Source of the DNA: a virus
IMG/VR virus record: IMGVR_UViG_3300032401_000690
Span: 1-64,000 of that record
Strand: one strand, 5' to 3'
DNA: 64,000 nt
This document shows positions 1 to 40,679 of the stretch, piece by piece (within the stretch, counting starts at the first letter, position 1; each line of letters begins with the position of its first letter). Both the position numbers and the translations under genes were made by a program. The notes beneath the pieces are model-generated. The model was not told where the DNA came from. It worked only from the letters and a program-made list of their open reading frames with translations, and searched no databases.

Positions 1-429
1 TATATTGAAAAATATGGGGAATATGATGGAAAAATAAAATATAATGGGTATTCTAAAGAACGAGTATCTAATATAATGGGGTTATCTATTTCGGCGTATT
101 CAAAAATATCTCAAGAATTGTTTTGGTTAATACATAATGAATTGTCTGATTATGAGATTTCTAGTTGTTATTTTAAAGAATTAAATAGAGAAGTATTTAT
201 AAATGGTAACAGTAAGACCTATATTCCTGATTTTATATATAAAAATAAAATTATAGAATATGATGGTTTATATTGGCATGATGAAATAAAAGACAACCGT
301 AGGAATCAATTTTATTTTGATAATGGTTATGAGTTGTTAGTAATAACCGACAATGACTTTAATCGTCAAAAAAAACCACAAGACGTGGTTAATAAATGTG
401 TTAAATTTTTAAGAAATGAAACAAAATGA
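1..429 (+). CDS. Free-standing homing endonuclease, Vsr/DUF559-like PD-(D/E)XK (5'-truncated by window edge)
   Basis: Frame is open from base 1 (YIEKYGEYDG...); C-terminal YIPDFIYKNKIIEYDGLYWH ... D..R ... GYELLVI motif of Vsr-like nucleases; overlaps the start of the terminase C-half. Confidence 0.8.
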   Translation, partial: YIEKYGEYDGKIKYNGYSKERVSNIMGLSISAYSKISQELFWLIHNELSDYEISSCYFKELNREVFINGNSKTYIPDFIYKNKIIEYDGLYWHDEIKDNRRNQFYFDNGYELLVITDNDFNRQKKPQDVVNKCVKFLRNETK

Positions 430-739
430 TCGTTATGAAATTTTAACACCGGAAGGTTTTGTGAAATTTGATGGAATACAAAAATTAATGAAAAAAACTA
501 GGGAAATATTTTTTGATAATAATATGACATTAAGGTGTAGTTATAACCATAAAATTTTTAATTATGATGGTGAAGAAGTATTAACTAAAAATATTAACGT
601 TAATGATAAAATTAAATCCCAAGATGGTTTTTTAACTGTTATTGATATTATCGATTACGATTACGAAACCGAAGTTTATGATATTATCAATGCTGGTGAA
701 TTACATTTATATTACACTAATGATATTGTGTCACATAAT
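416..739 (+). mobile_element. Atypical split intein, large C-fragment (AceL/GOS-TerL type)
   Basis: Begins with its own ATG, has no block A Cys1, carries blocks B, F and G, and ends His-Asn before Cys. Confidence 0.85.
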
Positions 740-1588
740 TGCAATTTTCTTGGATCTGGTGATAACGTATTTGATTCAAATATGTTGCAAACAATTCGTG
801 AAAATATGATAAAAGAACCCGCAAATAAAATGATGGGTAATTCTTTATGGATATGGAAGGAACCTGTTGTAGGACATAAATACATTATGGGTGTTGATGT
901 TAGTCGTGGTGATAGTGAGGATTTTAGTACAATACAAATTATTGATTTTGATGAACGGGAACAAGTATTAGAATATATTGGAAAAATCCCACCTGATGTA
1001 TTGGCAGAGATTGCATATAAATGGGGGAATATGTATTCTTGTTTTATTGTTATTGATATTACTGGTGGTATGGGAATTGCAACATCAAGAAAATTACAAG
1101 AACTTGGATATAAAAATATGTATGTTGATGGTATTGACCAAAATAATACTTGGAAATATGACCCAAAAGCGTTAGATAAAATACCGGGAATAAACTTTAA
1201 TAACAAACGAGTTCAAATAATTGCCGCCTTTGAAGAAGGTATGAGACATAAATTCAGAATTTATAGTTCAAGGTTGTTTAATGAGATGAATACCTTTGTT
1301 TATGTGAATGGAAGACCTGATCACCAAAAGGGTCATCACGATGATTTGATTATGTCTATATCAATTGCCTTATATGTTGGTGAATCATCCTTCTCTAGTC
1401 TTGAAAGGGTAACAGAACAAACTAAGGCGATGTTAGATTCTTGGACGGTTACCAATAATGAATCGGTTAAGGAGATAATAAACTTTAATCCACAAATGCC
1501 ACATTTTGGGTTTGATAATGGAAACAATAATTCGGGAGCATCTAGAAAGGATTATGAAACATATGGTTGGTTATTTGGTGGTAGATAG
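416..1588 (+). CDS. terL: Terminase large subunit C-terminal (nuclease) half fused to a 108-aa C-terminal split-intein fragment
   Basis: aa1-108 intein (LRCSYNHKIF block B, VYDI block F, ends SHN), +1 Cys at 740-742, then CNFLGSG, YIMGVDVSRGDSEDFS and HHDDLIMS motifs of the T4 gp17-like RNase H-fold domain; lies just upstream of the portal gene. Confidence 0.9.
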   Translation: MKQNDRYEILTPEGFVKFDGIQKLMKKTREIFFDNNMTLRCSYNHKIFNYDGEEVLTKNINVNDKIKSQDGFLTVIDIIDYDYETEVYDIINAGELHLYYTNDIVSHNCNFLGSGDNVFDSNMLQTIRENMIKEPANKMMGNSLWIWKEPVVGHKYIMGVDVSRGDSEDFSTIQIIDFDEREQVLEYIGKIPPDVLAEIAYKWGNMYSCFIVIDITGGMGIATSRKLQELGYKNMYVDGIDQNNTWKYDPKALDKIPGINFNNKRVQIIAAFEEGMRHKFRIYSSRLFNEMNTFVYVNGRPDHQKGHHDDLIMSISIALYVGESSFSSLERVTEQTKAMLDSWTVTNNESVKEIINFNPQMPHFGFDNGNNNSGASRKDYETYGWLFGGR

Positions 1589-7715: not shown

Positions 7716-9584
7716 ATGGGAGCATTATTAGAATCAGGTCTTGTTGGTAACATCGGGTTAAAACACCTTAAAGTTATCAAAGAAGATACTATAAACAAAT
7801 GGGATAAATTAGGATTCCTTGAAGGCCTTAAAGGTCACCTAAAAGAAAACGTTGCACAGTTATATGAAAACCAAGCATCTTTCTTGATTAACGAAGCAAC
7901 TTCTGAAGGTTCTAACGGAGCATTCGAAACTGTTGTTTTCCCAATCGTAAGAAGAGTTTTCTCTAAATTATTGGCAAACGAAATCGTTTCTGTACAAGCA
8001 ATGAACTTACCAATCGGTAAATTGTTCTTCTTCGTACCTCGTATCCAAGGATATCAATCTGGACAAGACCAAACACCAGCAAATGATTATGTTGGTGGTG
8101 GAACACATTATGCGCCAGTAGGGTCACCTAACAACGCAACAATTGATTCATCTACCATTGGTGCAGGTTACCCACCTAATTCAAACGCATTTTCAAAAAA
8201 TCTTTATGATTTATTCTATGAAGGTTCTGAAGGTCAATTAGATCCTCCAGGATTGTTTGATTACTCAAAAGGTAAATGGTCGGCAATCACTACTGATGCA
8301 ACTATGTTACAATGGGTTAACGGAACTATTGATAACGGACTTAATATTACTGAAACAACTAACGTTAGAAAAGTAATTGTTAAAATGTGTGGTTTCAGAG
8401 ATCTTGGTGTTGGTAAATTAATCGGACCTGATGGAAATGAGATTGATACTGAAAGTTTCTTATCTGACTTGAGAGTATTCCAAAAATCAGGTAATGGAAT
8501 GTCAGCATCTACAACACCTTGTAATGTATTGAGAGATACAAATGGTGATCCTAATTCTTTATTATTTAGAGTTGTAACTCAACAATATGGTAAAGGTATT
8601 GTTGCTCCAACATCTAACCAAGCATCTACTAGTTTCCCAAGTACAGGTAATGGTGGATCTTACAATAATATCTGTTCTCAAGATGGTTGTATCTATCTTG
8701 AAGTAGATTTATCTTGTCCAGCATGTGTTACTTGTGGTGAGACTATGGATGGTTACACAGGAACTACAATTTTTTCTGCGGCATCTGCAACATCATTCTC
8801 AACTGTTTATAGATCATACGCTAATATGGAATTTGAAGACCAAATTGGTGAGGTTTCTTTTGACTTAGAGTCTGTAACAGTTTCTGTAACTGAAAGAAAA
8901 TTAAGAGCACAATGGTCTCCAGAAATGGCACAAGACGTTGCGGCATTCCACAACATTGATGCTGAGGCTGAATTAACGGCTTTATTATCAGAACAAGTTG
9001 CGGCTGAAATTGACCGTGAGATCCTTCGTGACTTACGTAAAGGTGCGGCTTGGAACTTACGTTGGGATTATAATGGATGGAGAAGATTGTCTTTAACAAC
9101 TTCTTACACTCAAAAAGATTGGAATCAAACATTGATTACTGCAATCAACCAATTATCGGCACAAATCCACAAATCTACATTGAGAGGTGGAGCTAACTGG
9201 ATCGTTGTTTCTTCTGAGATTTCTGCAATCTTTGACGATTTAGAATACTTCCACGTATCTAATGCGTCTCCTGAACAAGACCAATACAATATGGGTATTG
9301 AAAGAGTTGGGACATTAGCAGGACGTTACCAAGTTTTCCGTGACCCTTACTTCCCACCAAACACAGTTTTGTTAGGACATAAAGGAACGTCATTGTTAGA
9401 CACAGGTTACATCTACGCACCGTATGTACCATTACAATTAACACCTACAATGTATAATCCGTTCAACTTTACTCCGATTAAAGGAATAATGACGAGATAC
9501 GCGAAAAAAATGGTAAATAATCGCTTTTATGGCAAAATTACCGTAGATGGTGTTCGTACATTTGATTTAAGAGAATTGAGATAA
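7716..9584 (+). CDS. Major capsid protein (T4 gp23-like) with a central insertion
   Basis: PIVRRVF, VSVQAMNLPIG, RKLRAQWSPEMAQDVAAFHNIDAEAELT, EIDREI, YAPYVPL, GIMTRYA motifs. Confidence 0.97.
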   Translation: MGALLESGLVGNIGLKHLKVIKEDTINKWDKLGFLEGLKGHLKENVAQLYENQASFLINEATSEGSNGAFETVVFPIVRRVFSKLLANEIVSVQAMNLPIGKLFFFVPRIQGYQSGQDQTPANDYVGGGTHYAPVGSPNNATIDSSTIGAGYPPNSNAFSKNLYDLFYEGSEGQLDPPGLFDYSKGKWSAITTDATMLQWVNGTIDNGLNITETTNVRKVIVKMCGFRDLGVGKLIGPDGNEIDTESFLSDLRVFQKSGNGMSASTTPCNVLRDTNGDPNSLLFRVVTQQYGKGIVAPTSNQASTSFPSTGNGGSYNNICSQDGCIYLEVDLSCPACVTCGETMDGYTGTTIFSAASATSFSTVYRSYANMEFEDQIGEVSFDLESVTVSVTERKLRAQWSPEMAQDVAAFHNIDAEAELTALLSEQVAAEIDREILRDLRKGAAWNLRWDYNGWRRLSLTTSYTQKDWNQTLITAINQLSAQIHKSTLRGGANWIVVSSEISAIFDDLEYFHVSNASPEQDQYNMGIERVGTLAGRYQVFRDPYFPPNTVLLGHKGTSLLDTGYIYAPYVPLQLTPTMYNPFNFTPIKGIMTRYAKKMVNNRFYGKITVDGVRTFDLRELR

Positions 9585-35714: not shown

Positions 35715-37223
35715 TTAAATGTAATAAAGGTTATTTTTTATTTTATCAAAATTTAATTTAATTAATGGTAATAAAATTTTATTGTATTCCATAATAATTT
35801 CCCCCATTTCTAAATCAATATTTCTTGTTTTAGATTCATAATGGTACGCAACACAATTACTACTAATAATGTTATTGTAATCTTTAATTTTAAATTGTAA
35901 ATTAAGTTCAACATCCTCCCAACAATATTTATAATTTTCACTAAACATTCCAAGTTTATTAAAAATATCTTTTCTAACCATCATTAAAGCCGCGGTATTA
36001 CCAACCACATTTGATTGATCACTAGTATAGTTAAAATACGACTCTTTATTTTTATGTGTTACACTTATTGATTTATTTGTTTGATTAACATATATAGATA
36101 TTCCATCATGTTGTAGTGTGTTATTTGGATAATGTAGTCTAGCACCAACTGTCCCAACTTTATTTGTTGTTTTAAAAATTCTTAACATTTCATAAATAAC
36201 ATTGTTAAGAACTTTAATATCGTTATTACAAAACAATAAAAATTCGTAATCATCATTTATGTGATTTTTAACAACATCGTTATTAATTTTTGCAAAATTA
36301 TAATAATCGTATTCAATTAATCTTATGTTGTTATTTAGTTGGATATAACTTTTTATGATTTCCTTTTCATCATCTGTTGATCCCGTATCCGCAATAAAAA
36401 TATCAAATAGTTTTTCATTACAATGTTCATAAAATGAATTAATACAATCCAATAACATTTCCACATTACCTTTTGTTGGGATTATAATTGCAACCTTACC
36501 AATATTTTTTAAAGGTTTTTCTTTAATTACCGGAACATAAACCGATTCAGGTTTTAAATCTAATGGTAATTCACTTCCCCATTTCTCAACGAACTTATCT
36601 TTGCTTTCCCAAAACTCTTGGTTTGGTCTACCAACAGATTGATGTGTTATCTCAAATGATGAGGTTACACCAATCTTAACTCCCGATAAGTAATTTGGTA
36701 CACAGAATAGATGATCGTAGAAGTGGAACTTACCAATGGTTGTATCAAACATATGATTACATTTTGTTTTATCAAACGACATAAACAAACCATCAATTGT
36801 TACAACTGGAACTAAAAAAGGTAATTTTGGAGAATATTTACTTAAGAATTTTTTTTGACCATCAGGGTGATGATAAACTTGCCCGACCATTGTTTGGTTC
36901 ATTCTGTCCCAATAAACTCCTGACTCGGGAAAATAACAAGAACCTGCTTTGCCTATAATACCATAGTCGGGATTATCCTCAAAATCTTTTAATAATTTTT
37001 TACCCCAATTTTTCTCAAGTTTAATATCGTTATGACAACAAACAATTATATTATAAATTGATTCAGTAATTCCGGAGTTATAAACATTTGATAATGAATG
37101 TTCATTATGATTTTCATATTCTAATATCTGAGGATCTTTAACCCCAACAGTTTGTAACAAATGTTGTCTAAATTTGTTATTATATTCTTGATCTTTATGT
37201 GTTGAATATATTATTGTTATCAT
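35715..37223 (-). CDS. Two-domain glycosyltransferase family 2
   Basis: N-domain CHND..FHFYD; C-domain IIIPT, DTGS, CNND, EDVEL, YHYESKTR. Confidence 0.85.
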   Translation of the reverse strand: MITIIYSTHKDQEYNNKFRQHLLQTVGVKDPQILEYENHNEHSLSNVYNSGITESIYNIIVCCHNDIKLEKNWGKKLLKDFEDNPDYGIIGKAGSCYFPESGVYWDRMNQTMVGQVYHHPDGQKKFLSKYSPKLPFLVPVVTIDGLFMSFDKTKCNHMFDTTIGKFHFYDHLFCVPNYLSGVKIGVTSSFEITHQSVGRPNQEFWESKDKFVEKWGSELPLDLKPESVYVPVIKEKPLKNIGKVAIIIPTKGNVEMLLDCINSFYEHCNEKLFDIFIADTGSTDDEKEIIKSYIQLNNNIRLIEYDYYNFAKINNDVVKNHINDDYEFLLFCNNDIKVLNNVIYEMLRIFKTTNKVGTVGARLHYPNNTLQHDGISIYVNQTNKSISVTHKNKESYFNYTSDQSNVVGNTAALMMVRKDIFNKLGMFSENYKYCWEDVELNLQFKIKDYNNIISSNCVAYHYESKTRNIDLEMGEIIMEYNKILLPLIKLNFDKIKNNLYYI

Positions 37224-37522
37224 ATCCCAGTACTCCCGAATCCTTTCTCTCCTCGGTCTTTATTGTTTATGTTATCAACCTTTGTTAATTTAATCCACTT
37301 ACCTGAAACCACGGGTGAAATAACTGCTTGTGCGATTTTCTGACCTTTTTTAATTATAACATTATTTTTTGTTGTATTAAATAGTATAACTTGAATTTCT
37401 CCTGTATATCCACAATTATGTATTAGATGGTCATTACAAAAAAAGTTATGATTATTAGATACCGTAATATCATAAGTTTGGTTTTTTGATTTTGAGATTT
37501 TTTTTATTTTAGTTGTTTTCAT
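37220..37522 (-). CDS. dut: Split-intein C-fragment (36 aa) fused to dUTPase C-terminal part (64 aa)
   Basis: TYDITVSNNHNFFCNDHLIHN|CGYTGEIQV...KIAQAV...RGEKGFGSTG (dUTPase motifs 3-end, 4 and 5). Confidence 0.92.
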   Translation of the reverse strand: MKTTKIKKISKSKNQTYDITVSNNHNFFCNDHLIHNCGYTGEIQVILFNTTKNNVIIKKGQKIAQAVISPVVSGKWIKLTKVDNINNKDRGEKGFGSTGI

Positions 37523-38393
37523 TTATAAAAGTTTTTAAATCATTAACACTATAAAATATTTTATAGTTTTTATATATCTGTTTTGTATAATATTCCTTAA
37601 CGTCAACCTCTTCAGTATTCCACCCCTTCATTTCAATAATATAGGATAATCCGTTATTAAATTCAACCAAAAAATCAGGAACATAGTGTCTATTTATGTC
37701 GTTATAAAAATATTTTATTCTAATCCCATGTTTATTTGTCCATGTTTTTACTAAAGTAGAGGAATCGAATAATTTCATAGACTCTAATTCGTAAGAGGAT
37801 GCGTACATAAAAATTTCATTATTTTTTGAAGTATATTTACCGGTCTTATATTTATTAGATTGATTACTGATTATTCCATCGGCATATAGTTGAGATATTT
37901 TTTTAGACATATTTTCTCTATATTCTAATGATTTCTCACATCTTCCGTCGTTTAACGACTTTTTTATTGATTCTATTGTTTTTTCTCTATACTCATTATT
38001 TTTCCACTTTTCTTTTGACGTTTTAGATATTTTTTCAATTCTTTCGTCAGATATTACCCATTTTTTAAACTCTTCCGACGATTTCCAATTCGTAAATCCA
38101 GAAAAAATTTCAGGAGTTTCCTTATGAATTTTTTTAATCTTTTCAGACATACTTTTCCTAAATTCAGGATTTTTATGTGTTATATTTCTAATTTTTATTT
38201 GTTTGTCTCTATAGTCGGGGTCTGACCAATTTTTTTTTGATCTTTCCGATATTTTTTTTAACTCATCATTTGATTTCACTTGAGAACCTACAAACATTAA
38301 TTTATAGTCCGAACTATTCATTTTATGTTCAAATTTTAAGTGCTCAACAATTGAACACTTTTTTTCCACACCACAAATTAAACATTTCACCAT
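37509..38393 (-). CDS. Free-standing endonuclease between the dUTPase halves (zinc finger, helical DNA-binding repeats, TnsA-like PD-(D/E)XK domain)
   Basis: CLICG...HLKFEH; repeated E.R.K.S motifs; YASSYE, YVPDFLV, IIEMKG. Confidence 0.8.
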   Translation of the reverse strand: MVKCLICGVEKKCSIVEHLKFEHKMNSSDYKLMFVGSQVKSNDELKKISERSKKNWSDPDYRDKQIKIRNITHKNPEFRKSMSEKIKKIHKETPEIFSGFTNWKSSEEFKKWVISDERIEKISKTSKEKWKNNEYREKTIESIKKSLNDGRCEKSLEYRENMSKKISQLYADGIISNQSNKYKTGKYTSKNNEIFMYASSYELESMKLFDSSTLVKTWTNKHGIRIKYFYNDINRHYVPDFLVEFNNGLSYIIEMKGWNTEEVDVKEYYTKQIYKNYKIFYSVNDLKTFINENN

Positions 38394-38431
38394 AATACCC
38401 CTTATCTATATTGATAAATAGTATGCTGGTG

Positions 38432-39124
38432 TTAAAAAATTATGATTTCATCGTTTTCGGTTAAATTTTTTGCCAACTTAATCCCGTCTTTAGTGTAAAC
38501 CTCACTATTAAGGGTAACCTCAAGAATTCCATGTTCGGTGTCAATTAATAATATTTCTTGGACTCCAGTATCAAAAATGGATGATATGACATCTTTCTCA
38601 ATCTCTAAAGAATCTTCATTAAATGAATAAACGATATCCCCAATCCTCAGTTCTTTGATTGTCTTATCTCCGTCAATGGTTAATATCTTCATGTTTTCAG
38701 AAAAACAATCCACCGTCCCCGGAGAATTTAATACCATAAGCCCTTGTTTTAAAGCCAAACCACTCTTAGGCCTCACCTGTACCTCATACCCGTCAGGAAT
38801 ATCAATATGTAACCCCGTTGGAATTAATGATCTACCAAACGATTCTATTTCAATTTCTTCAGTTGAAAACAAATCAAATCCAGAATCTGTTGGGTAAGCA
38901 TATGATGGGTCAATAGAATCAACGTTGGATTGAGAATACTCAACTTTCATTTTTTGTTCAAAGTTTGCCATATCTCGTTCAAGTTCGGCAACATCAACAC
39001 CAAAAATATCCATTATGTTTTGGTAGTCAGGTTCTTCATCACCAAACATATCCTCAAGTTCTTGGAGATTTTCTAGTTGATTAAGTAAGTCCCCAAGATT
39101 TTCTTCTTCTTCCTCGTTAATCAT
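38432..39124 (-). CDS. dut: dUTPase N-terminal part (139 aa) fused to split-intein N-fragment (91 aa)
   Basis: DSGFDL (motif 1), IPTGL, RPKSGLA (motif 2), NSPGTVD|CFSENMKILT (intein block A starting at 38707). Confidence 0.92.
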   Translation of the reverse strand: MINEEEEENLGDLLNQLENLQELEDMFGDEEPDYQNIMDIFGVDVAELERDMANFEQKMKVEYSQSNVDSIDPSYAYPTDSGFDLFSTEEIEIESFGRSLIPTGLHIDIPDGYEVQVRPKSGLALKQGLMVLNSPGTVDCFSENMKILTIDGDKTIKELRIGDIVYSFNEDSLEIEKDVISSIFDTGVQEILLIDTEHGILEVTLNSEVYTKDGIKLAKNLTENDEIIIF

Positions 39125-39845: not shown

Positions 39846-40679
39846 TTAATTATTTTTTATTTTATCTACAACTTCCCACCCTTTATTTTTTCCATAAGAT
39901 TTCAAAGTAGTAACACTAACTAATAGGTTATTTTTTTTTACGTAATCTTTAAATGAATTATAACCTAAAAAATTTAAAATATCACCTTTAGGTGTTTTTA
40001 TTATCCAAATCATTTTATTTGATTCAGATTGTTTTTTCTTTGATAACTCACTTCTTTTATACCCAACCTTACTTATTGACATTTTTTTTCTTATGTCTTC
40101 ATTATATTTTTTACCTTTATTTGGTGATGGAACCCCTTTTTTAATTTTAGATAATTTTAATTTAGTTTCATCATTCATAGGAATTCTTTTTTTACCTTTA
40201 AGTGACTCGCTTATTTTTTTTCTTGTATTGTCACTAACAATTCTACCTTTAGATGTTTCACTAATTTTTTTTCTAAAATTTTCAGACATTTTTAACCCCC
40301 TATTCCATCCACCTAAAGTCCTATTTTGTTTTTTCGCAGTTTCGGACATTTTAAGTTTTGTTTTACTACTATGATTTTTCCCAAACATAGGAGATCCCCC
40401 ATCACCACCATTGGTTAAATTAACCAATTTAAATCCCCATACTTTAAATTGAGATATCCAATACATTTCAACCTCATTTGAGTCTTTATCGTCACATACA
40501 TCTAAAATTTCTATAATAATTTTTCCCCCATTTAATAAAGTATTATTAATCCATTTTTCTTTATATGTTTTTTTATTTTTACTTTGATTTATATGTGCAG
40601 AGTATCTTTTATTTATTGATTTAGTTTTACCAATATAACGAATTTTAATCTCATCACTAAGTGTGTAAATATATGTCAT
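39846..40679 (-). CDS. GIY-YIG homing endonuclease with NUMOD3 repeats
   Basis: YIYTL...RYIGKT...R...H; E..WI; NLTNGGDG; repeated HS..TK.KMS/KIS motifs. Confidence 0.9.
   Translation of the reverse strand: MTYIYTLSDEIKIRYIGKTKSINKRYSAHINQSKNKKTYKEKWINNTLLNGGKIIIEILDVCDDKDSNEVEMYWISQFKVWGFKLVNLTNGGDGGSPMFGKNHSSKTKLKMSETAKKQNRTLGGWNRGLKMSENFRKKISETSKGRIVSDNTRKKISESLKGKKRIPMNDETKLKLSKIKKGVPSPNKGKKYNEDIRKKMSISKVGYKRSELSKKKQSESNKMIWIIKTPKGDILNFLGYNSFKDYVKKNNLLVSVTTLKSYGKNKGWEVVDKIKNN

What the first reader, a model, noticed from the sequence alone, without database searches (positions are those of the whole stretch)
37220..39124. Fractured dUTPase rebuilt by protein trans-splicing
Seen: dUTPase is in two ORFs. 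The first ends ...NSPGTVD|C + 91-aa intein N-fragment + stop; the second is a 36-aa intein C-fragment ending HN followed by CGYTGEI... A 294-aa endonuclease ORF sits between them. Splicing would restore motif 3 as GTVD-C-GYTGEI, right after the catalytic Asp, giving a 203-aa enzyme. IntN is acidic (20 D/E vs 8 K/R) and IntC basic (6 K vs 2 D), the charge complementarity typical of natural split inteins. Known: this fractured-gene layout is described for phage helicase, IMPDH, RNR, ligase and terminase genes. I do not recall a split intein in a dUTPase, so this may be a new host protein and a new split-intein pair; novelty is unverified.
Basis: partly seen in the sequence, partly recalled or inferred. 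Interest (0 to 1): 0.88.

Follow-up and report, generated by a model that had tools for sequence, protein, structure and literature searches.

The report
Phage dUTPase split by mobile intein
An uncultured T4-like phage encodes its dUTPase as two half-genes that carry the two halves of a self-splicing intein, with a selfish nuclease gene between them; the layout is a known kind, but this host enzyme, this nuclease type and the intein's missing "essential" histidine were in no paper I could search.

Summary
On the minus strand lie three ORFs: dUTPase N-part plus a 91-aa IntN (39124-38432), a 294-aa endonuclease (38393-37509), and a 36-aa IntC plus dUTPase C-part (37522-37220). It is not an artefact, because contigs from independent runs reproduce it without indels. 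More than 100 protein clusters and 38 IMG/VR contigs share the layout. Cys1, the terminal His-Asn and Cys+1 are invariant. All five segments are under purifying selection (dN/dS about 0.1-0.3).

The cassette is mobile. A syntenic intein-less 203-aa allele differs at the site only by the 1293-nt cassette and CAA to TGT. The extein tree needs at least 7 gains or losses. The cassette is 90-95% identical to one sitting in a dUTPase only 70-75% identical.

Three features are not in the searched literature. dUTPase is a new host. The endonuclease is a Ros-type zinc finger plus a TnsA-like PD-(D/E)XK domain, not GIY-YIG or Vsr-like. The whole intein clade lacks the block-B histidine (Ser/Thr in 104 of 105 clusters).

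Trans-splicing itself is inferred, not shown. This scan has already met the same arrangement on other DNA, in at least 7 genomes. I class it as a new variant of a known kind (the fractured genes of Dassa et al. 2009).

The parts
38708..39124 (-). dUTPase N-extein, 139 aa. It has an acidic ~65-aa N-terminal extension and motifs I-II, then motif III up to the catalytic Asp (...NSPGTVD). Its ATG overlaps the stop of the upstream 3'-5' exonuclease gene (ATGA).
   Evidence: Pfam PF00692 positions 4-64, E 2.8e-9. 94% nt identity to the intein-less allele L087.
38432..38707 (-). IntN, 91 aa (38707-38435), plus the TAA stop (38434-38432). Block A starts at Cys1 (CFSENMKILT). Block B reads T-L-N-S where canonical inteins read T-x-x-H. 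Net charge is acidic.
   Evidence: phmmer hit to the Npu DnaB mini-intein 4O1R, E 6.5e-5, aligning TLNS with TGNH. Family alignment of 105 clusters. The fold of the N ORF model matches Npu/Ssp DnaE, NrdJ-1 and DnaB inteins.
38388..38431 (-). RNA hairpin in the 38-nt spacer. It pairs the Shine-Dalgarno (AAGGGG) and the AUG of the endonuclease gene. It is a candidate translational brake on the endonuclease.
   Evidence: dG -15.9 kcal/mol, z -4.85 against shuffles. The same element is conserved in 10 close loci without covariation. Hairpins of different sequence stand at the same place in L045 (z -6.5) and L096 (z -3.6). Dassa et al. describe such hairpins.
37509..38393 (-). Free-standing endonuclease gene, 294 aa. 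It has an N-terminal Ros/MucR-type C2H2 zinc finger (C4, C7, H18, H23), helical NUMOD-like repeats, and a C-terminal TnsA-like PD-(D/E)XK nuclease domain (E202, P239-D240, E254-x-K256).
   Evidence: Alignment A2 invariants. Profile hits to Ros 2JSP (E 0.013) and T7 endonuclease I 1M0D (E 0.035). Pfam by member: TnsA-like_N 19/34, ROS_MUCR 11/34. AF2 model pLDDT 87. TnsA is the top hit: Foldseek E 1.4e-4, VIA Z 10.2. dN/dS 0.09-0.35.
37415..37522 (-). IntC, 36 aa, basic. It carries block F (TYDITV..NNHNFF) and block G (LIHN). Its ATG lies inside the last codons of the endonuclease gene (14-nt overlap).
   Evidence: Pfam Intein_splicing positions 121-155. gp41-1 intein 6QAZ, E 1e-4. D18, H25, H35 and N36 are invariant in 108/108 clusters. 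The overlap is conserved in all loci.
37220..37414 (-). dUTPase C-extein, 64 aa plus stop. It has Cys+1 (TGT, 37414-37412), the rest of motif III (GYTGE), motif IV and motif V (RGEKGFGSTG). Its stop overlaps the ATG of the downstream glycosyltransferase gene (ATGA).
   Evidence: Pfam PF00692 positions 71-129, E 2e-14. Solved dUTPases match down to E 1.2e-10.

Best explanation
This is a fractured dUTPase gene of an uncultured T4-like myophage. A mobile cassette sits in motif III, directly after the catalytic Asp. The cassette is IntN, a free-standing homing-type endonuclease gene, and IntC, 1293 nt in all (38707-37415).

Proposed mechanism:
1. The two half-genes are co-transcribed with their neighbours and translated separately.
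2. The acidic 91-aa IntN and the basic 36-aa IntC associate into one HINT domain.
3. Cys1 makes the thioester, Cys+1 takes over the N-extein, and Asn36 (helped by His35 and block-F Asp18/His25) cyclises.
4. A peptide bond joins Asp139 to Cys. The product is a 203-aa dUTPase with motif III reading GTVD-C-GYTGE, which then trimerises.
5. The N-S acyl shift runs without the usual block-B His. Ser/Thr stands there in the whole clade. The shift is presumably helped by the conserved block-B Thr/Asn and the non-Gly -1 residue.
6. The endonuclease (zinc finger plus TnsA-like PD-(D/E)XK) cuts intein-less dUTPase alleles of co-infecting relatives. Repair then copies in the cassette together with the Cys+1 codon.
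7. Translation of the endonuclease is held down by a hairpin over its ribosome-binding site.

Shown: the anatomy, conservation, selection, the empty site and lateral transfer. Inferred: association, splicing chemistry, enzyme activity, the endonuclease target and the role of the hairpin.
For: Anatomy and domain assignment.

The phage is T4-like: gp20 portal and gp23 capsid in the window.

The layout is reproduced in independent runs. It occurs in at least 35 IMG/VR loci with gaps of 906-938 nt and in 38 IMG/VR contigs by pattern.

Catalytic residues are invariant. Cys1 is 105/105. D18, H25, H35, N36 and C+1 are 108/108. One distant locus has +1 Ser, which is still a nucleophile. Intein-less alleles carry Q, N or S at that position.

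Cys at this position is tolerated by dUTPase: 65 bacterial dUTPases read GTVD-C-DYRGE without any intein.

dN/dS is 0.1-0.3 in N-extein, IntN, endonuclease, IntC and C-extein. A decayed copy (L020) shows what loss of function looks like.

The empty site is known. The syntenic allele L087 is 94% identical in the exteins and differs at the site by the cassette and CAA to TGT.

Lateral transfer is supported by several results:
- Window against L003, exteins have dS 1.2-1.5 and 70-75% nt identity. The cassette has dS 0.32-0.39 and 90-95% identity, with breaks at the intein ends.
- The extein tree needs at least 7 changes of state.
- The AU test rejects one clade of split alleles (p 8e-49) and rejects window+L003 as sisters (p 2.5e-12).

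Endonuclease fold and motifs. Three endonuclease relatives at 33-35% identity also sit between dUTPase halves.

Hairpin and overlap. Dassa et al. describe the same features.

There is precedent for splicing without the block-B His. A small natural group (Tko CDC21-1 orthologues) lacks it, and larger -1 side chains rescue the H73A mutant of the Ssp DnaB M86 intein (PMC6333167).
Against: No protein-level evidence exists: no spliced product, no activity, no cleavage assay.

The block-B His is essential in many inteins. It is absent from the entire clade, and IntN has no conserved His at all. Splicing could therefore be slow, conditional or absent.

No RNA data were available. The co-folding test of the two halves could not be run.

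The hairpin shows no covariation within the close set and is missing in two loci with short spacers.

The co-conversion tract is almost nil. Homing is thus inferred from the pattern, not from a mapped cut site.
Confidence: 0.8

Rival explanations
1. The intein halves no longer splice. They act only as a non-covalent zipper that brings the two dUTPase halves together, or the N-half undergoes N-cleavage only.
For: The block-B His is missing in all 105 clusters. It is essential in many inteins. Charge complementarity would also serve plain association.
Against: A zipper needs no nucleophiles. Yet Cys1, Asn36, His35 and the +1 Cys/Ser are invariant, while intein-less alleles have mostly Gln at +1. 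A 127-aa HINT domain left inside motif III, next to the catalytic Asp, would sit in the active site of a trimer. Natural and engineered inteins can splice without this His.
Confidence: 0.08
2. The dUTPase has been killed by a selfish insertion. The two halves are non-functional remnants, and the phage relies on the host's Dut.
For: G000 holds no second dUTPase, but the record is only about 49% complete. One relative (L020) does carry a truncated C-extein and an internally deleted endonuclease. The fractured form is a minority allele (38 against at least 120 IMG/VR contigs).
Against: dN/dS is 0.12-0.3 in both exteins at saturated dS. All five dUTPase motifs are kept. The ORF ends are conserved in more than 100 clusters down to 40-55% identity and in distant phage types, including contigs of 278-364 kb.
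Confidence: 0.05
3. The halves are joined at the nucleic-acid or translation level, giving a cis mini-intein. Candidates are a group I intron that carries the endonuclease ORF, ribosomal bypass, or an alternative genetic code.
For: The N and C ORFs are in the same frame. Endonuclease ORFs of several kinds do live in phage group I introns.
Against: No Rfam family reaches threshold in the window, and none matches at E up to 10 apart from chance snoRNA hits. The endonuclease ORF fills 885 of the 907 nt between the halves, which leaves no room for an intron core. 27 stops of all three kinds lie in the frame. IntN's stop and IntC's ATG are conserved across the family. No fused form turned up in the near-length or longer-length searches.
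Confidence: 0.02

Closest known systems
Fractured genes of Dassa, London, Stoddard, Schueler-Furman and Pietrokovski 2009 (PMC2677866). Hosts: gp41 helicase, IMPDH, DnaE, NrdA, NrdJ, DNA ligase, terminase.
   Same: A co-directional N-half+IntN, a free-standing endonuclease gene, and IntC+C-half. A hairpin stands over the endonuclease start. The endonuclease 3' end overlaps the downstream ORF. The arrangement is found in phage from aquatic metagenomes. The host is a nucleotide-metabolism enzyme. The split is at the canonical endonuclease-insertion point (91/36 aa)..
   Different: dUTPase is not among the listed hosts. The endonuclease is neither GIY-YIG nor Vsr-like. The intein lacks the block-B His. 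Lateral transfer and the empty site are documented here at nucleotide level.
gp41-1 and NrdJ-1 natural split inteins (PDB 6QAZ, 8UBS), and the Npu/Ssp DnaB mini-inteins (4O1R, 1MI8).
   Same: Class 1 HINT fold with Cys1 and terminal HN. IntC is similar to gp41-1 (E 1e-4). IntN is similar to DnaB mini-inteins (E 6.5e-5, block B T-x-N aligned).
   Different: By BLAST/HMMER the similarity is marginal to any solved or GenBank-phage intein: 31-36% identity to helicase inteins. Ser/Thr replaces the block-B His. The +1 residue is Cys. The -1 residue is the host's catalytic Asp.
Inteins that work without the block-B histidine: the Tko CDC21-1 orthologues, and the Ssp DnaB M86 H73A mutant with bulky -1 residues (Friedel et al. 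2018, PMC6333167).
   Same: Class 1 chemistry with the His missing. The -1 residue is not Gly..
   Different: Those are cis inteins, natural archaeal or engineered. Here a whole, abundant clade of naturally split phage inteins has Ser/Thr at that place. The compensating residue is unknown.
TnsA of Tn7 (1F1Z, 1T0F), the homing endonuclease I-Bth0305I (3R3P, the Vsr-like family of Dassa et al.), and I-Ssp6803I (PD-(D/E)XK).
   Same: Restriction-endonuclease-like core. TnsA is the best structural match (Z 10.2, 127 residues aligned). I-Bth0305I shares the core (Z 5.7). The modular build, DNA-binding repeats plus a C-terminal nuclease, is like I-Bth0305I.
   Different: The motif is the canonical E...PD...ExK rather than the His-using Vsr-like site. 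An N-terminal Ros/MucR-type zinc finger is present. No cleavage has been shown.
AceL-TerL-type atypically split terminase inteins (consensus 'Cat' intein, PDB 6DSL).
   Same: One sits in the same phage, at window 1-1588, with a DUF559/Vsr-like endonuclease gene upstream. The genome therefore carries at least two fractured genes.
   Different: It is split near the intein's N end (long IntC of about 108 aa), keeps the block-B His (CSYNH), and has a different endonuclease family.

Membership tests
Fractured gene (split intein + free-standing endonuclease; Dassa et al. 2009) | A conserved enzyme gene is broken into two co-directional ORFs. The first ends in an intein N-part and the second starts with an intein C-part. 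| tested here: met
   Pfam dUTPase positions 4-64 and 71-129 fall on the two ORFs.
Fractured gene (split intein + free-standing endonuclease; Dassa et al. 2009) | A separate endonuclease ORF lies between the halves, with its own start, a 5' hairpin, and a 3' overlap with the downstream ORF. | tested here: met
   The features are described.
Fractured gene (split intein + free-standing endonuclease; Dassa et al. 2009) | The endonuclease is of the GIY-YIG or Vsr-like type. | tested here: not met
   It is a zinc finger plus a TnsA-like PD-(D/E)XK domain with E202, D240, E254 and K256. This feature describes the published set. It is not a requirement of the arrangement.
Fractured gene (split intein + free-standing endonuclease; Dassa et al. 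2009) | The halves are ligated by protein trans-splicing. | not testable with these tools
No proteomic data were at hand.
Class 1 intein (HINT domain) | A nucleophile at position 1 and at +1, and a C-terminal His-Asn. | tested here: met
   Cys1 105/105. H35, N36 and C+1 108/108.
Class 1 intein (HINT domain) | Block B TxxH, with the catalytic His. | tested here: not met
   Thr is present. His is replaced by Ser 80, Thr 24 and Phe 1 of 105 clusters. Distant loci read TPNT, TPTT and TPGT.
Class 1 intein (HINT domain) | Block F Asp and His; the HINT fold. | tested here: met
   D18 and H25 are invariant. The N ORF model matches split and mini-intein structures (modest E-values, model pLDDT 75).
Class 3 intein | No position-1 nucleophile, and the Trp-Cys-Thr motif with Cys at block F position 4. 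| tested here: not met
   Cys1 is present. Block F position 4 is Asp18.
Homotrimeric dUTPase (PF00692) | Five conserved motifs, including motif III G-x-x-D-x-x-Y-x-G-E and motif V R-G-x-x-G-F-G-S-T-G. | tested here: met
   Motif III is complete only after joining. The intein-less alleles are 202-203 aa.
Homotrimeric dUTPase (PF00692) | dUTP hydrolysis. | not testable with these tools
   It needs an enzyme assay.
Vsr-like (I-Bth0305I-type) homing endonucleases | A Vsr-type active site that uses a conserved His, and sequence similarity to Vsr/DUF559. | tested here: not met
   No Vsr or DUF559 Pfam hit in 34 members. The invariant residues are E, D, E, K. 3R3P aligns only at Z 5.7, against 10.2 for TnsA. 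The shared superfamily fold is not in doubt.
PD-(D/E)XK nuclease superfamily | An alpha-beta-beta-beta-alpha-beta core with E...(P)D...(D/E)xK. | tested here: met
Homing endonuclease (functional class) | It cleaves the cassette-less allele and drives copying of its own gene. | tested here: inconclusive
   The pattern fits: an empty site, at least 7 gains or losses, and a cassette much younger than the exteins. Cleavage is not tested.
Group I intron with an endonuclease ORF | The intron core structure. | tested here: not met
   There is no Rfam match at gathering score, and none at E up to 10.

The most novel reading that the evidence does not exclude
The dUTPase split-intein clade may use a splicing chemistry in which the host's own residue does part of the intein's work. 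The invariant -1 residue is the catalytic Asp of dUTPase motif III. Together with the clade-specific block-B Ser/Thr (and perhaps the invariant IntC Cys29), it could replace the block-B histidine in activating the N-terminal scissile bond. That would make this an extein-assisted, possibly ligand- or redox-conditional, natural split intein. It is coupled to a so far undescribed TnsA-like, zinc-finger homing endonuclease family that appears dedicated to this one site.
Probability: 0.2. Interest if true: 0.75.

Novelty: new variant of a known kind. Interest (0 to 1): 0.55.

Why it matters
If the two halves splice, this is an abundant, naturally split Cys1/Cys+1 intein family of small size (91 + 36 aa). 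It is only distantly related to gp41-1, NrdJ-1 or DnaE, so it is a candidate orthogonal tool for protein ligation.

It is also a natural test case for how the N-S acyl shift is catalysed without the most conserved intein histidine.

It adds a nucleotide-pool enzyme, split exactly at its catalytic Asp, to the list of fractured phage genes. It links a TnsA-like PD-(D/E)XK nuclease with a Ros-type zinc finger to homing.

The data set holds near-identical occupied and empty alleles and a recently transferred cassette. That makes the homing step directly testable in vitro.

For annotation, the practical point is that these two 'partial dUTPase' ORFs should not be called pseudogenes.

Tried and rejected
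- Complex prediction for IntN + IntC was busy four times and then declared not available. There is therefore no co-folding test.
- A search for longer proteins carrying a relative of IntN (a cis form with a nested endonuclease) found none. The tool itself rates this as weak evidence.
- No RNA holder was listed among the public runs, so nothing can be said on expression.
- Rfam found nothing at gathering score, and only chance snoRNA-like matches at E 3-10.
- BLASTN of the 5-kb region against GenBank phages gave only a 188-nt hit in the neighbouring GIY-YIG gene.
- The conserved CTAT(A)TTTAT motif in the spacer is not enriched in the window (2 found, 3 expected). I do not call it a promoter. 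Its reverse complement reads TATAAATA in L045 and L096, but on the wrong strand.
- The generic promoter/terminator scan was at chance level.
- RNAalifold on 10 close spacers gave no covariation. Support for the hairpin rests on z-scores and on different sequences folding alike in distant loci.
- The co-conversion tract search found that apart from the +1 codon, only one or two flanking sites look donor-like.
- The genome-contig scan found no intein-bearing dUTPase in cellular genomes. It found only bacterial enzymes with a natural Cys at the site. The scan is limited to two peptide patterns.
- I considered a giant-virus origin (low GC, glycosyltransferases). I rejected it after finding T4 gp20 and gp23.


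Full report
**What is there.** On the minus strand the window holds three tightly packed ORFs.
- ORF 39124-38432 (230 aa) is the N-part of a homotrimeric-type dUTPase, followed after ...NSPGTVD by a 91-aa intein N-fragment and TAA.
- ORF 38393-37509 (294 aa) is an endonuclease in another frame.
- ORF 37522-37220 (100 aa) is a 36-aa intein C-fragment ending LIHN, followed by CGYTGEI and the rest of the enzyme.

Pfam puts dUTPase profile positions 4-64 on the first ORF and 71-129 on the third. It gives Hint/intein hits to the junction-side ends. Solved dUTPases match the C-part down to E 1.2e-10, and the gp41-1 split intein matches IntC (E 1e-4). IntN matches the Npu and Ssp DnaB mini-inteins (E 6.5e-5).

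Between the halves the N/C frame holds 27 stops of all three kinds. The genome is a T4-like myophage (gp20 portal, gp23 capsid). It is an IMG/VR record of 144 kb rated about 49% complete, with no other dUTPase piece.

**Not an artefact, not a one-off.** Contigs from other public runs cover the IntN stop, the endonuclease start and the IntC start with no indels. One contig from a different study spans the whole stretch with 40 substitutions and no gap.

The N-fragment with its IntN occurs in more than 100 protein clusters at 53-99% identity. The C-fragment occurs in 108 clusters. In IMG/VR, about 35 of the best 80 related loci have the same three-gene layout with a gap of 906-938 nt. A back-translated junction pattern finds 38 contigs with the fractured form, against at least 120 with the intact form.

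The layout also occurs in quite different phages and dUTPase lineages:
- L045 has no acidic N-extension and has +1 Ser.
- L072/L078 lie on a 278-kb contig.
- L096 lies on a 364-kb contig next to RNR and PolB.

One copy (L020) is visibly decayed, with an internally deleted endonuclease and a truncated C-extein. No cellular genome in the GTDB representative set carried the fractured form under the two patterns used.

**Selection and chemistry.**
- In 105 IntN clusters Cys1 is invariant.
- In 108 IntC clusters block-F Asp18 and His25, His35, Asn36 and Cys+1 are invariant.
- Intein-less alleles have Gln (mostly), Asn or Ser at the +1 position.
- Cys there is compatible with the enzyme, because 65 bacterial dUTPases read GTVD-C-DYRGE with no intein.
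- Nei-Gojobori dN/dS is about 0.1-0.3 for N-extein, IntN, endonuclease, IntC and C-extein alike.

These facts are what one expects if ligation is needed for a working enzyme. They are hard to square with a dead gene or a mere zipper.

**The missing histidine.** Block B reads T-x-N-S/T. The position of the canonical His is Ser in 80, Thr in 24 and Phe in 1 of 105 clusters, and IntN has no conserved His at all. The alignment to DnaB inteins (TGNH/TANH) fixes the register. Distant loci read TPNT, TPTT and TPGT. A related split intein in a DExH helicase (L006) keeps TGNH.

The literature says this His is essential in many inteins. It also says that a very small natural group lacks it, and that side chains larger than Ala at -1 can rescue an H73A DnaB intein (PMC6333167). 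Here -1 is always the catalytic Asp of motif III. I therefore take splicing as likely, but I flag this step as the weakest inferred link.

**Mobility.** A syntenic intein-less allele (L087) is 94% identical in the exteins. At the site it reads GGGACGGTAGAT CAA GGATATACAGG. The window reads GGGACGGTGGAT, then the 1293-nt cassette, then TGT GGATATACAGG. Another empty allele differs in the 51 nt around the site by one synonymous change plus CAA to TGT.

Against L003 the exteins are 70-75% identical (dS 1.2-1.5). The cassette is 90-95% identical (dS 0.32-0.39), and the switch falls at the intein ends. Informative sites show an L087-like extein backbone with a donor-like +1 codon.

On an extein tree of 40 alleles (with the +1 residue masked) the split state needs at least 7 changes, 6 of them forced by well-supported branches. 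The window groups at 99% support with two intein-less alleles. AU tests reject one clade of split alleles (p 8e-49) and reject window+L003 as sisters (p 2.5e-12). The second group was named after seeing the tree.

**The endonuclease.** It has 901 relatives at E 1e-3 among cluster representatives, about 30 of them full-length. Three of these, at 33-35% identity, also sit between dUTPase halves.

Invariant residues are C4, C7, H18 and H23, and E202, P239-D240 and E254-x-K256. Profile hits go to the Ros zinc finger (E 0.013) and T7 endonuclease I (E 0.035). Member-wise Pfam gives TnsA-like_N in 19/34 and ROS_MUCR in 11/34, and the Atlas look-alikes agree.

The AlphaFold model (pLDDT 87) matches TnsA best: Foldseek E 1.4e-4, Z 10.2 over 127 residues. 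I-Bth0305I, the solved member of Dassa's Vsr-like family, reaches only Z 5.7. So it belongs to the PD-(D/E)XK superfamily but not to either endonuclease type reported for fractured genes.

**Control elements.** The 38-nt spacer folds into a hairpin (dG -15.9, z -4.85) that pairs the endonuclease's Shine-Dalgarno and AUG. The element is conserved in close loci without covariation. Hairpins of unrelated sequence occupy the same place in L045 and L096. IntC's ATG lies inside the last codons of the endonuclease gene in all loci. Both features are described for the published fractured genes. The outer ends are coupled to the neighbouring genes by ATGA overlaps.

**Rivals.**
- A group I intron or other RNA-level joining is not supported.
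- No fused cis form was found.
- A dead gene is contradicted by selection.
- Non-covalent complementation is contradicted by the invariant nucleophiles.

**Novelty.** Dassa et al. list gp41, IMPDH, DnaE, NrdA, NrdJ, ligase and terminase, not dUTPase. No paper in the library combines split intein or intein with dUTPase in this sense. In 50,697 GenBank phage records the nearest IntN relatives are 31-36% identical inteins in helicases. This scan has already noted the same arrangement on other DNA, in at least 7 genomes, with three follow-ups reaching the same reading. I file it as a new variant of a known kind.

**Limits.** There is no protein or RNA evidence. The N-ORF model is of middling confidence (pLDDT 75). 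The literature library lacks most subscription journals.

Noticed in passing
window 1-1588 (+): A second fractured gene sits at the contig start. ORF 1-429 is the C-part of a DUF559/Vsr-like endonuclease (EYDG..WH). ORF 416-1588 starts with a long IntC of about 108 aa (block B CSYNH, ending VSHN|C). That IntC matches the consensus atypical split intein CatC (6DSL_B, E 6.5e-14). A T4-type terminase nuclease domain follows (3C6A, E 1.3e-8). This is an AceL-TerL-type atypically split terminase intein. The N-half lies off the contig.
   Followed up: partly
window 39846-40679 (-): A free-standing GIY-YIG + NUMOD3 endonuclease gene lies between the 405-aa glycosyltransferase-like gene and the 3'-5' exonuclease gene. 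It is absent from the syntenic intein-less relative L087, where those two genes abut. It is probably a second, independent mobile insertion within 1 kb of the dUTPase cassette.
   Followed up: partly
L006:3422-5351: A DExH-box helicase is split exactly inside motif II (MVDE|C ... SN|CH) by a related split intein. Its IntN ends KNLTENDEIISFF and its block B TGNH has the His. No endonuclease gene lies between the halves (46-nt gap). It looks like the 'endonuclease lost' stage of Dassa's model. GenBank Salmonella S16-like phages annotate 'uvsW_1' at their matching intein.
   Followed up: no
L020:542-2246: A decayed fractured dUTPase. The endonuclease has an internal deletion (277 aa). The C-fragment is cut down to 56 aa (IntC, then CSY, then only motif V). 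It is an example of the arrangement degenerating.
   Followed up: no
L090:97-711 (protein P0119): An intein-less 204-aa phage dUTPase with Cys (TGT) at the insertion site (GTVD-C-GYTGE). It is either a scar of precise cassette loss or a pre-adapted target. It rests on a single 740-nt contig.
   Followed up: partly
window 38705 (run X2, loose end): One contig of an independent run matches the cassette up to the Cys1 codon and then continues upstream with unrelated sequence. It may be the same intein cassette in another gene or allele, or a chimeric contig.
   Followed up: no
window 7716-9584 (+): The gp23-type major capsid protein is 622 aa. The Pfam Gp23 match falls in two stretches, and the best covers only residues 348-609. 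The N-terminal third has no explained domain.
   Followed up: no
IntC residue 29 (window 37438-37436): A Cys inside block F (NFFCN) is invariant in 108/108 IntC clusters of the main clade, but is Ala in L045. gp41-1 and NrdJ-1 have Ala there (from memory). It could be a redox partner of Cys1 or Cys+1.
   Followed up: no
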